A model generated the notes under the pieces. The model was not told where the DNA came from. It saw only the letters and a list, made by a program, of their open reading frames with translations, and ran no database searches. From Eledone cirrhosa (lineage: Eukaryota): DNA of 64,000 bases. Location: positions 20,088,001-20,152,000 of the forward strand of contig OZ024744.1 of assembly GCA_964016885.1 (NCBI GenBank), given 5' to 3'. Every line of letters starts with the position of its first letter. The stretch's first letter is position 1. The position numbers and the translations under genes were made by a program. Of this stretch, positions 57 through 32,574 are shown piece after piece.

Positions 57-1680
57 TTTGGTAGGATATGGGGTAGTCAATCCGTACCTGAGGACTGGAG
101 AGATGGAGTAATGGTGGTCTTGTACAAGGGAAAGGGTAACAAGAATGATTGTGGAAACTACAGAAGTATATCATTGCTTTCTGTCGTAGGGAAAGTTTTA
201 TGTAGGGTGCTTCTGGATCGTCTGTTGACACACATTGCAGATTGTGTTCTACCTGAAAGTCAATCTGGTTTTCGTGCTGGACGCGGCACTACTGTTATGA
301 TCTTCTCAGTTAGACAGCTCCAGGAGAAATGCATGGAACAAGGTTTGGATCTGTATCAGGTTTTTGTCGATCTGACAAAAGCTTTTGATACTGTTAACAG
401 AAATGCATTGAGGAATGTTCTCCAGAAACTGCCCTGATAAGTTCCTTACTTTGGTTAGGTCTTTCCATAACGACATGAAGGCTTGGGTTAATGTCAAAGG
501 TAACATGTTAGAGTCTATCTCTAAAACATAGAGTGAAACAGGGGGATATTCCAGCACCGACCCTGTTTGCCATATACTTTACAATGGTATATTGCATTCA
601 GGAATTGCGAGCATGGTGCTTACATCCAATATCGAATCTCTGGCAGCATATTTAACATTAGGCACTTTGCTGCAAAAACAAAAGTATTTACATCAATCAT
701 AAGAGACCTCTTGTATGCAGATGATTGGGATCTTGTAGCGCACACAGATAGTGATATGCAGCACATTTTGAATGCATTTCCTGACGCTTGCACTGCCCTA
801 GGATTGACTGTCAGTCTCAAGAAAACCGTCGTCATGTACCACCCTGCCTTTTGTAAGCAGTACAGTGAACCAAGTATCTATGTGTATGGTAAACAACTTG
901 GAGTGGTTGATCAGTTTGTCTACCTGGGAAGTACTGTTAATTGATACAGCAATCTTGATAATGAAATCCGACTCAGGATTAGGAAAGCAAGGGATGCTTT
1001 CGGAAAGCTAGAGAGGTGACTCTAGGGTCGGAGAAACATATGCAAGAAGACAAAGGTAAAGTTGTACAAGGCACGTGTGCTCTCTTCTTTATGCCTGTGA
1101 GACCTGTGTCACATATCGACACCACTTTAACAATTGGAGCGTTTCCATCAGATGTGTCTCAACGGACGACCTCCACATAAACCAAAAAGAAGTACAAGGA
1201 TTCGTTGAAAGCCTCTTTGAAACAGGCTAACATCCCTGCTGATACATGGAATAATGTTGCTGCCGATCGTAGTAAATTGGGAAGACTGTGTATGAGGGGA
1301 ACGTTGCCTTTGAGGCATCTCGAATCGCATACGAGAAAGTAAAGCGGGATGTAAGGAAGGTCATTACTGTTACATTTCCAGACAACCAATGGCGCTGACA
1401 TGCAGAGTCTGTGTGAGACTCTGCCTCAGCAAAGCTGAACTCGAAAGTCATAAAGTGAGACCAGTGGTTGACTACCGGGCTGCTGTCAGAGATGCTACTC
1501 ATCATGCCTGCCAAGCATGTGGAAAAGAGAGTGTAGATTAGCAGAAGGGCTCAAACGACATGCAAAAGTACATGAACTCCAACCACATCAGGATATTCCC
1601 AGTGAATCTTTTGGTTGCCAACTCTGGCATGTTAGATCATTGGCTGGGCTAATAAGCCACATTCGATCGCAGCACTGTTA
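57..1680 (+). mobile_element. RTE-clade LINE copy 1, 5'-truncated and degenerate (RT, thumb, C-terminal zinc-finger region); 3' UTR continues into microsatellites
   Basis: ORFs 54-437 and 567-944 carry YKGKGNKNDCGNYRSISLLS, LPESQSGFRAGRGT, FVDLTKAFDTV, LLYADD and FVYLGS. Collinear with 34295-36055 apart from an internal deletion near 1165. Confidence 0.93.
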
Positions 1681-1688
1681 ATTGTTAT

Positions 1689-1883
1689 TGTGTGTGTGTG
1701 TGTGTGTGTGTGTGTGTGTGTGTGTGTGTGTGTGTGTGTGTGTGTGTGTGTGTGTATATGTGTGTGTGTGTGTGTGTGTGTGTGTGGATATGTATATATA
1801 TATATATATATATATATATATATATATGTGTGTGTGTGTGTATATATATACATATATATATATTTAATATTACTATTATTATT
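1689..1883. repeat. Compound microsatellite (TG)n-(TA)n-(ATT)n in the RTE 3' UTR
   Basis: Direct reading. Same order of repeat types as 36062-36180 after the sister RTE stop codon. Confidence 0.95.
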
Positions 1884-1923
1884 GTTTTTCTTGATGTCAG
1901 CCCTTGTGGCCAATATAGAAATC
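1884..1923 (+). mobile_element. Ultra-short 3' terminus of a Tx1-like element (same family as 28405-32450)
   Basis: gtttttcttgatgtcagcccttgtggccaatatagaaatc matches 32411-32450 with 1 mismatch. Confidence 0.85.
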
Positions 1924-1932
1924 ATGATTATC

Positions 1933-31400: not shown

Positions 31401-32450
31401 AGTGATAGCGCTTGGAAACTGGAATGTTTCCAGGCACTCACTGCCCTCTTCCAGCTGGGCACCAGTATCGGTGGAACATCAACCTCGGCGTTCTATAGAG
31501 GACTAGTGGAGGGGAAGAGCGACGACGTTCTCGGAAAGATTCTAGGCGTCGAAGAAGATCAGCTGTTTGCTCTCTTCCGGAGTACTTTCAGCCCGGGGCC
31601 TATGGATAACTTCCAAATATCCCTGGCTGGCAGTGCTACCGGGGAGCGTTGCCGGTTCGAGATAAGCTCTACAGGCACGGAAGTGCCCTCAACCGATCCT
31701 GTCCGAGATGCGCGCAGAGCGACGAAACCGTCGTGCACGCACTCGTTCAGTGCCCGAGCCTTGCTTACTTGTGGAGCTATGTCAAACAGTTGCTGTCACG
31801 TGTAGGACTGAACGGTTATCGACTGAGTCCATTGTGCAGATGGTCTCGCCGTCTTTCTTCGAGGATGAATGGCAGGCGGCTTTCATCTGCTTAGTGGCCA
31901 TGGCGAAAGAGATTGTGGGGTGGACAAGTTTGAAAGGGTTAAAGACAGATACTCTCCTCTTCGGCGAATCCCTAATTAACTTTTTCAGGTTTCACTTGAA
32001 GAGGAAAATAAGGGCGGTGAGGTAAGTGCTGCCTTCTAGCAAGTTTGTTGAAAGGTGGGTGAATGTAGCGAGAATGGTCCTAGTAAACGGGACCGCTCTG
32101 AATATACGTCTGTAGTTTGAGAAATGGAAAAATTGAGAGAAGGCGCTTGCCCTGGTGGTCAGGGTGGCCGTGGTCTTTTGTGTGGTTTTCGCCACGAGTA
32201 ACCCTCGGAAGTTTCCCCTCTATTGGGGAATTTTTCATTGTTTCAATTTTCATTTTTATCGTTTATATATATATATATGTTTCTCTGTCCTTTCTTTTTC
32301 TGTTCTTATATAAATAATAAAAATCTTTACATCATTACATGCACAAAACCCACATCGTACCGTCCTGTACCGTCCTGTACCGTCCTGTACCGTCCTGTGC
32401 CGTCTGTAATGTTTTTCTTGATGTCAGCCCTTGTGGCCAATACAGAAATC
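28405..32450 (+). mobile_element. Tx1-like retrotransposon copy 3, both ends present, two large ORF2 deletions
   Basis: ORF1 from 28619; ORF2 ATG at 30564. Jumps from copy-1 ~4634 to ~5270 at 30690, and from ~5526 to ~6830 at 30945-31015. The 3' UTR has (GTACCGTCCT)4. Confidence 0.93.
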
Positions 32451-32488
32451 ATTACTATTATTATTATTATTATTGTCGTTATTATGTA

Positions 32489-32536
32489 TTTCTTCTTCGT
32501 TCAATGGCCATACTCGATAACGCGGGGGCAGCCATC
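32489..32536 (+). mobile_element. RTE 3' terminal stem-loop (displaced end of RTE copy 1), followed by (ATGT)n at 32537-32574
   Basis: cgttcaatggccatactcgataacgcgggggcagccatc versus cgtgcaatggccatactcgataacgagggggcatccatc at 36311-36349. Confidence 0.85.
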
Positions 32537-32574
32537 ATGTATGTATGTATGTATGTATGTATGTATGTATGTAT

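What the first reader, a model, noticed from the sequence alone, without database searches (positions are those of the whole stretch)
1680..32574. A ~30.6 kb retrotransposon array grown inside the (ATT)n tract of one RTE 3' UTR (mobile landing pad)
Seen: the intact sister RTE reads stop (36055) - (TG)n/(TA)n - (ATT)n - T-rich - terminal stem-loop (36305-36349) - ATGT. RTE copy 1 reads stop (~1680) - (TG)n/(TA)n - ATT, and its terminal stem-loop reappears only at 32489-32536. Between them lie at least 13 insertions from Tx1-like and R4/Dong-like families. The block is bounded by a 15-bp direct repeat containing a variant ACT unit (ATTACTATTATTATT, 1869-1883 and 32451-32465), as expected for the TSD of a founding insertion. 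Inference: the RTE disperses ATT target sites, each targeted insertion regenerates ATT on both sides, and the array feeds itself. This amounts to a multi-family hyperparasitic system nested in a LINE UTR.
Basis: partly seen in the sequence, partly recalled or inferred. Interest (0 to 1): 0.85.

Follow-up and report, generated by a model that had tools for sequence, protein, structure and literature searches.

The report
Retrotransposon pile-up inside a LINE's tail
Fifteen pieces of two unrelated kinds of jumping gene sit in a 30.6-kb row, most likely inside the short ATT repeat in the tail of one older jumping gene, and about one in six sampled copies of that older element carries such passengers, so it likely spreads landing sites for them, though it is only one of several sources of those sites.

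Summary
An RTE-type LINE's 3' UTR stops at an ATT tract (1883) and resumes at 32451. Between lie 15 segments: 7 Tx1-like (mostly +) and 8 Dong/R4-like (-). 99.5% of the block matches repeats elsewhere.

The halves most likely belong to one element. They share a linked subfamily marker (7 of 8 vs 0 of 63 copies), and the host looks as old as or older than its passengers.

The pattern is family-wide. Of 90 sampled RTE copies, 87 carry the ATT tract and 15 hold Tx1/Dong insertions there. The tail is recovered behind the insert in 14 of those 15, twice after 17-18 kb.

But the RTE is not a privileged host. It supplies about 4-10% of long ATT tracts and 4 of 60 Tx1/Dong flanks. CR1 and SINE tails supply more, and a 15-kb ATT array just upstream has no RTE. 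The 15-bp repeat fits a target-site duplication but names no founder. Contiguity was not independently confirmed.

Each ingredient has precedent (Dong in TAA, repeat-targeting Tx1, LINE microsatellite seeding, plant SaTar arrays). I did not find the combination in print.

The parts
46..1681 (+). RTE-type LINE copy 1, ORF remnant (RT to C-terminus, decayed, internal deletion near 1161-1166); older subfamily; its original 5' junction is gone (abuts a younger repeat cut mid-element)
   Evidence: (about 92% to best relatives)
1682..1883 (+). Left half of the RTE 3' UTR: (TG)49, (TA)n, start of the ATT tract
1869..1883 (+). Left copy of the 15-bp direct repeat (candidate TSD)
1884..1924 (+). a: 41-bp 3'-end fragment of Tx1-like family c
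   Evidence: same end as 32411-32450
1928..2072 (+). b: 3'-end fragment of Tx1-like family b with a 16-bp tandem at its 5' edge; (ATT)7 follows
2094..8166 (+). c: full-length, decayed Tx1-like family a (ORF1 + APE-RT ORF2)
8189..9744 (-). d: 5'-truncated Dong/R4-like family B (older variant)
9761..14348 (-). e: near full-length Dong/R4-like family A including its long 5' UTR
14381..14477 (-). f: tiny Dong A (3' 65 bp joined to a piece from near the ORF start)
14561..16309 (-). g: 5'-truncated Dong A (youngest, 99.3% to a copy elsewhere)
16346..19348 (-). h: 5'-truncated Dong B
19390..22495 (-). i: Dong B with a rearranged join at 22185-22228 to a Dong-type 5' UTR
22518..26898 (+). j: Tx1-like family b, cut within ORF1; APE, RT and zf-RVT present
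26921..28166 (-). k: 5'-truncated Dong A
28214..28349 (-). l: 136-bp 3' end of Dong B
28405..30943 (+). m: 5' part of Tx1-like family c (ORF1, internal deletion at 30690, no 3' end)
30944..30981 (.). n: inverted pair of very short Tx1 3' ends; ATT tract follows
31013..32450 (+). o: 5'-truncated Tx1-like family c; oldest-looking insert (89.5% to best match held)
32451..32465 (+). Right copy of the 15-bp direct repeat
32466..32574 (+). Right half of the RTE 3' UTR: rest of ATT tract with the GTC unit and the subfamily marker, T-rich stretch, terminal conserved sequence (32489-32536), (ATGT)n
34296..36349 (+). Sister RTE copy (5'-truncated, younger subfamily) with an uninterrupted UTR; comparison only

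Best explanation
A 30.6-kb row of 15 Tx1-like and Dong/R4-like LINE pieces, nearly all joined by ATT repeats, most likely built up by repeated, independent insertions into the ATT tract in the 3' UTR of one old RTE-type LINE copy. Shown: the ATT tract is in nearly all RTE copies; Tx1-like elements sit in it in the ATT orientation and Dong-like elements in the opposite (TAA) orientation; ATT remains on both sides of an insert; the same split recurs in many RTE copies. Inferred: the RTE copies the tract to new sites as part of its RNA. The Tx1 APE endonuclease and the Dong restriction-like endonuclease would each cut the repeat and prime reverse transcription there. The element's own ATT/TAA tail, a short target duplication and slippage would leave two targets where there was one, so a site hit once becomes more likely to be hit again. 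The RTE is a passive seeder, one among several (CR1 tails, SINE tails, ordinary microsatellites), not a specific host. This locus is the longest case seen in a skewed size range.
For: ATT tract (3 or more units) in 87 of 90 RTE copies; 57 uninterrupted, 15 with Tx1 (4) or Dong (11) at an ATT tract, 7 with an ATT-tailed SINE. Tail found behind the insert in 14 of 15, at 0.2-18.5 kb; L207 is a 17-kb Dong+Tx1+SINE array and L222 an 18-kb triple Tx1. A further single-Tx1 case is L011. Halves are complementary: the GTC unit is missing on the left and present on the right. The ORF-end allele of copy 1 is linked to the pre-tail marker of the right half in 7 of 8 vs 0 of 63 copies, p = 6e-9. Best-match identities: host 92%, Tx1c 89-91%, others 95-99%. 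Dong copies g and h are closer to copies elsewhere (99.3%, 98.8%) than to their in-array relatives (97.6%, 95.2%) and all have different truncation points. 99.5% of the block is repeat. ATT-tailed SINE copies show duplications starting at ATT, 11-21 nt in 19 of 30 (some of the 11-mers are only ATT), which matches the 15-mer's length and register.
Against: No TSD for the RTE itself; its 5' flank was replaced. No long read or empty allele was seen; the pieces listed were under 90 bp. One of 15 replicate cases (L203) has no tail within 20 kb. The variant ACT unit occurs only at the two outer junctions, which simple serial insertion at one cut site does not predict. Two internal junctions are rearranged. 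L222's inner junctions repeat the left-flank variant over about 40 nt, so duplication may also add copies. Endonuclease cleavage was not tested. The 90 copies are the first 90 on contig C1, not a random sample. Identities are best matches among fetched loci only.
Confidence: 0.8

Rival explanations
1. Two different RTE copies (or an RTE and a UTR-only fragment) happen to bracket an ATT array, joined by deletion or by chance in a repeat-dense region.
For: The tail 21-mer has 7,548 exact copies. UTR-only fragments exist (L020). The region is crowded, with a second array and a third RTE within 20 kb upstream. The RTE's own TSD is absent.
Against: Same strand, complementary halves, and a shared marker carried by only 7 of 71 tails. 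The 15-mer sits in register at both ends. 14 of 15 replicate loci recover the tail. No unique DNA lies inside.
Confidence: 0.1
2. A specialised hyperparasitism: Tx1 and Dong prefer or depend on the RTE UTR, which is their main route to new sites.
For: 22 of 90 RTE copies carry an ATT-associated insert. Per site, RTE tracts are hit more often than SINE tails (15 of 90 vs 1 of 30, p = 0.07).
Against: RTE share of long ATT tracts (3 of 30; about 2,400 of 65,958 by count) is about equal to its share of insertion flanks (4 of 60). Generic long tracts have a Tx1/Dong neighbour in 7 of 30, although some of those tracts were made by the insertions themselves. The upstream array lacks an RTE. CR1 tails make 4 of 30 long tracts.
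Confidence: 0.12
3. The array grew mainly by tandem duplication or unequal crossing-over, or is an assembly artefact of collapsed repeats.
For: Identical-scoring Dong copies repeat every 4,955 bp at C28:114.44-114.46 Mb. L222 has repeated junction variants. Contiguity was not confirmed by reads.
Against: No within-window alignment spans two inserts. Copies differ by 2-8% and end at different points. External alignments span only 2 of 16 junctions, both tail-to-tail joins of fixed 3' ends. The window has no N.
Confidence: 0.06

Closest known systems
Dong elements of the R4 clade inserted in (TAA)n (Dong of Bombyx mori, DongAg, DongBg; PMC3812793 and PMC7998251, passages read)
   Same: Single ORF with RT, CCHC and restriction-like endonuclease motifs; TAA target, already reported for molluscs; same strand polarity.
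   Different: Here two Dong families share the tract with APE-type Tx1 families on the other strand, and the tract is carried inside another LINE.
Target-preferring Tx1 clade: Kibi (TC)n, Koshi (TTC)n, crocodilian (TTCC/TTTC)n families, Tx1 in Tx1D, Tx1-Mar and SINEU in Mariner-N4_AMi (PMC4494074, passages read)
   Same: APE-RT LINEs in microsatellites or inside other transposons, with a SINE using the same target and clusters of neighbours.
   Different: (ATT)n is not among the targets in the passages I read. The 'host transposon' is hit through a generic microsatellite, not a unique sequence.
Microsatellite seeding by LINE 3' ends in squamates (CR1-L3, Rex; PMC6050309, passages read) and by L1/Alu (PMC3812793)
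   Same: A LINE spreads a simple repeat as part of its 3' end.
   Different: The tract here is internal to the UTR, and the seeded repeat is the target of other LINEs; the passages read do not report that second step.
SaTar arrays of guayule and rice (PMC5907723, abstract and passages read)
   Same: Mixed-family, end-to-end arrays joined by one microsatellite, with members mostly not interrupting one another.
   Different: SaTars are small non-autonomous MULE DNA transposons in (TA)n of plants. These are autonomous LINEs of two endonuclease classes, in arrays of tens of kb, some started inside a third LINE.

Membership tests
RTE clade LINE (host) | One ORF with N-terminal APE and RT | tested here: met
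   Family copies L059 and L069 have 1,071 open codons with Exo_endo_phos and RVT_1; both window copies are 5'-cut and show RT only.
RTE clade LINE (host) | Short 3' UTR ending in a short tandem repeat rather than poly(A) (feature recalled) | tested here: met
   UTR of about 150-450 nt ending in a conserved tail plus (ATGT)/(AT)n.
RTE clade LINE (host) | RT phylogeny with named RTE elements | not testable with these tools
   No named reference RTE sequences were available; the clade label rests on architecture and recalled motifs.
Tx1 clade (L1 group) | Two ORFs; ORF2 with APE, RT and C-terminal zinc-binding motif | tested here: met
   Exo_endo_phos, RVT_1 and zf-RVT in element j; Atlas neighbours are L1-ORF2-type RVT_1+zf-RVT clusters.
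Tx1 clade (L1 group) | ORF1 with a CCHC zinc knuckle (feature recalled) | tested here: inconclusive
   A C-x4-H-x4-C remnant is visible in decayed ORF1 translations but the first Cys is absent; no Pfam hit.
Tx1 clade (L1 group) | Target-sequence preference | tested here: met
   All 4 same-strand Tx1 inserts in 90 RTE UTRs lie at ATT tracts; full-length 5' ends follow ATT tracts at L011, L131, L207, L222. The 3'-end search pattern contained ATT, so it was not used for this test.
Tx1 clade (L1 group) | RT phylogeny with named Tx1 elements | not testable with these tools
   Protein hits are unnamed or hypothetical; the closest named ones are from Argonauta hians.
R4/Dong clade | One ORF: RT, CCHC, C-terminal restriction-like (PD-D/ExK) endonuclease, no APE | tested here: met
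   Motifs read in translations; full-length relative P0001 has RVT_1, weak zf-RVT and HSDR_N_2, no APE; its best solved relatives are R2 proteins (E 1e-29) ahead of L1 (E 1e-14).
R4/Dong clade | (TAA)n target | tested here: met
   All 11 Dong inserts in RTE UTRs lie at ATT tracts, antisense, and ATT resumes beyond the 5' end in 10 of 11.
R4/Dong clade | N-terminal SANT/Myb-like domain without zinc fingers (PMC7998251) | tested here: inconclusive
   No N-terminal zinc finger or Myb hit in Pfam; a Myb-like stretch is suggested by eye; no profile-profile test run.
R4/Dong clade | RT phylogeny with Dong and R4 | not testable with these tools
   The 120 listed protein hits carry no informative names.
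SaTar-type microsatellite-targeted arrays | Members are MULE DNA transposons with TIRs | tested here: not met
   Members are RT-encoding LINEs; only the array architecture is alike.
SaTar-type microsatellite-targeted arrays | Mixed families joined end to end through one microsatellite | tested here: met
   Most of the 16 junctions are ATT tracts; three are degenerate or rearranged.

The most novel reading that the evidence does not exclude
LINEs that do not themselves need ATT sites (this RTE, and a CR1 with an ATT tail) are the main founders of new ATT arrays. They thereby set where two unrelated site-specific LINE clades and a SINE of about 120,000 copies accumulate: a chain of niche construction among retroelements, with a separate ATGT circuit at the RTE's very end, that adds tens of kilobases per founding event to the genome.
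Probability: 0.25. Interest if true: 0.7.

Novelty: new variant of a known kind. Interest (0 to 1): 0.45.

Why it matters
It gives a countable case of one transposon creating target sites for others. At least 2,732 RTE copies match the ORF-end pattern, and about one in six of those sampled has been colonised. Each copy has a datable host, a known empty state and ordered passengers, so self-accelerating array growth can be tested directly (is the size distribution heavier than Poisson, does tract length predict the next hit). It may account for some TE hotspots in such genomes; an octopus annotation reports hotspots and recent RTE, Dong-R4 and L1-Tx1 activity without mentioning nesting or targets (PMC13282606). 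It also shows an APE and a restriction-like endonuclease using opposite strands of one trinucleotide repeat, and it warns annotators that RTE UTRs can be split by up to 30 kb.

Tried and rejected
TSD of the RTE itself: no match of its 5' flank behind either tail; the best match was an 11-mer inside a Dong. The right flank of the sister RTE gave only weak old-repeat hits.

Reads: 4 of 24 listed runs were laid on 26500-33300. The pieces listed were under 90 bp and came from genome-wide copies, so they say nothing for or against contiguity or an empty allele.

Hairpin: folding the tail gave no significant stability.

One search used a mis-cut library entry and its classes were discarded; one search is the corrected run. 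In one search my first UTR-subtype rule ('second TG/TA block') was confounded by the marker itself (p = 0.27) and was replaced by the marker test. The marker was chosen after looking at these data, so its p-value is descriptive.

Rows set aside from the 90: L259 (Tx1 on the opposite strand, beside an inverted UTR), 2 copies with an ATGT-type SINE and 8 with no tail and no library hit were not counted as ATT insertions.

Tx1 TSD length could not be read because flanks are pure ATT or alignments did not reach the 5' end (7 of 15 had a clear ATT/ATC 5' flank). Segments 13740-14348 and 22212-22495 were suspected host DNA and rejected: they are Dong 5' UTR.

Earlier-findings look-ups held nothing for this genome or sequence.
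Full report
Setting. The window is G000:C28:20088001-20152000 in a 3.0-Gb assembly. The closest named protein hits of the Tx1-like ORF2 are from Argonauta hians, so the host is probably an octopod; I did not try to identify it further. Clade names below rest on domain architecture and recalled motifs, not on trees with named references.

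What is in the window. RTE copy 1 runs from 46 to its stop at 1679-1681, then (TG)49, (TA)n and an ATT tract that ends at 1883. Its UTR resumes at 32451 with ATT units, the GTC unit, a T-rich stretch, the conserved tail and (ATGT)n. Between lie 15 segments (see parts): 7 Tx1-like, on the + strand apart from one tiny inverted end, and 8 Dong/R4-like, all on the - strand. Of 30,567 bases, 154 have no match in 1.17 Mb of other fetched loci. The pieces differ by 2-8% within families, end at different 5' points, and no self-alignment covers two of them. Dong copies g and h are closer to copies elsewhere than to their relatives in the array. This is what independent insertion predicts and tandem duplication does not.

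Is ATT part of the RTE? Yes. It is present by eye in 16 or more of the 17 best-matching copies that reach the UTR. Among the first 90 of 2,732 exact ORF-end matches, all on contig C1, 87 have three or more ATT units. The tail 21-mer has 7,548 copies but is shared with a SINE (13 of 30), so the tail alone proves little.

Do the two halves belong together? The halves are complementary. The RTE also has a minority subfamily with a different base just after the last codon. Among 71 copies with the tail in view, 7 of 8 with that base carry a short marker before the T-run, against 0 of 63 without it. Copy 1 has the base and the right half has the marker. The marker was picked after inspecting the data. 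Best-match identities put the host (92%) and the Tx1c pieces (89-91%) oldest and the other inserts at 95-99% (limited to fetched loci). The RTE's own TSD cannot be tested because a younger repeat has replaced its 5' flank. Reads were uninformative.

The 15-bp repeat. It abuts the first insert on the left and follows the last Tx1 end on the right. It occurs in 8 of 281 ATT tracts elsewhere and starts 0 of 51 other Tx1 3' junctions. An ATT-tailed SINE with a Tx1-like 3' end leaves duplications that begin at ATT and are 11-21 nt long in 19 of 30 copies. Length and register therefore fit a TSD. But both ends abut Tx1c pieces and no inner junction carries the variant, so the founder is unresolved; element o is the best guess.

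Is the arrangement general? Of the 90 copies, 57 are uninterrupted, 11 hold a Dong, 4 a Tx1 and 7 the SINE at an ATT tract; 11 others were set aside. The tail is found behind the Tx1/Dong insert in 14 of 15, and ATT lies on both sides in the same 14. Two are large: L207, about 17 kb of Dong, Tx1 and SINE ending in the same old-subfamily UTR, and L222, three full Tx1 copies over 18 kb. L011 and L131 are single-Tx1 cases found separately. If 15 of 90 held genome-wide, roughly 450 copies would be colonised; this is an extrapolation from one contig arm.

Is the RTE special? Not detectably. There are 65,958 matches to a five-unit ATT tract end. Of the first 30, 3 are RTE UTR (2 copies), 4 are tails of a CR1-like LINE, about 13 touch the SINE and 7 touch Tx1 or Dong. 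By count, RTE UTRs give about 2,400 matches, or 4% (80 matches in 90 copies, scaled to 2,732; a lower bound). Of 60 Tx1b and DongA 3' flanks, 4 are RTE UTR, 34 are other Tx1, Dong or SINE by script, and 22 are unassigned, some of them Dong 5' ends by eye. The SINE has 119,862 exact tail matches but short tails, and 1 of 30 is followed by a LINE. A Tx1/Dong/SINE array of about 15 kb ends 9 kb upstream of the window with no RTE UTR at either end. So self-feeding is well supported and RTE seeding is real, but roughly in proportion to the RTE's share of long tracts. The comparison is weak in one respect: long tracts next to Tx1/Dong were partly made by those insertions.

Mechanism. Shown: target choice, strand polarity, ATT on both sides, repeat colonisation. 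Inferred from known target-primed reverse transcription: cutting by the two endonucleases, priming on the repeat, and regeneration of targets by tails, duplications and slippage. L222 and an exactly periodic Dong run elsewhere on C28 suggest that duplication can contribute at other loci.

Literature. Nine searches were answered; none listed a paper whose title or abstract start describes RTE-borne ATT tracts as Tx1/Dong targets. Searches returned nothing, and for 60 and 73 I saw only the top 20 of 1,486 and 15 of 2,864. I read passages of PMC4640811, PMC3812793, PMC3774820, PMC4494074, PMC7998251, PMC5907723 (with abstract) and PMC6050309, and the first third plus passages of PMC13282606. I opened no supplements; those of PMC4494074 (Tx1 target tables) and PMC13282606 could bear on novelty. 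Kojima and Fujiwara 2004 and Xiong and Eickbush 1993 were seen only as citations, and Repbase entries were not available, so an ATT-targeting Tx1 family may already be recorded there. Dong in TAA (including molluscs), Tx1 in microsatellites and in other transposons, LINE microsatellite seeding and mixed arrays built by microsatellite targeting are all published.

Verdict. A real and unusually large nested array whose mechanism generalises across the genome. It is a new combination of known processes rather than a new system. Interest 0.45.

Noticed in passing
window 32537-36360; L012, L019, L037, L046, L173, L176: A second circuit at the RTE's very end: its (ATGT)n/(AT)n tail is often followed by a SINE-like element with a related tail (32576-33066) or by a minus-strand LINE with a restriction-like endonuclease (33140-34229), and RTE copies themselves start in (ATGT)n (34230-34295).
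   Followed up: partly
L283-L312; inverted copy at about window 13780-13841: SINE with 119,862 exact tail matches whose 3' end resembles the Tx1 3' end; it inserts at ATTAT with 11-21 nt duplications, so it is probably mobilised by the Tx1 families. A piece of it is fixed in the Dong A 5' UTR.
   Followed up: partly
L318, L324, L331, L340: CR1-like LINE ending in an (ATT)n tail; 4 of 30 long ATT tracts, another seeder of the same target.
   Followed up: partly
L075 to L049 (G000:C28:20063320-20078780): Second Tx1/Dong/SINE array of about 15 kb just upstream, with no RTE UTR at its ends; its Dong copies lie on the + strand, opposite to the usual polarity.
   Followed up: partly
L092-L095 (G000:C28:114444243-114459509): Four Dong A copies at an exact 4,955-bp period with identical scores: recent tandem duplication or an assembly artefact.
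   Followed up: no
L270-L271 (beyond L222): Three Tx1 copies 96-98% alike whose inner junctions both repeat a variant of the left flank over about 40 nt.
   Followed up: partly
L180, L198; window 1884-1924: Very short (32-41 bp) Tx1 3'-end inserts joined through microhomology, probably abortive reverse transcription; two RTE copies carry the same 32-bp piece.
   Followed up: no
window 37703-39655: Inverted repeat with 773-bp arms at 95% identity; another with 287-bp arms at 50347-51258.
   Followed up: no
window 40441-40856: Long palindromic AT-rich stretch next to an inverted copy of the ATGT-type SINE (39792-40419).
   Followed up: no
L049 6400-8700: Decayed RT-like ORF with an asparagine-rich N-terminal region, Penelope-like by recalled motifs; not tested.
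   Followed up: no
L059, L069: RTE copies open over 1,071 codons, so the family probably still has functional members.
   Followed up: no
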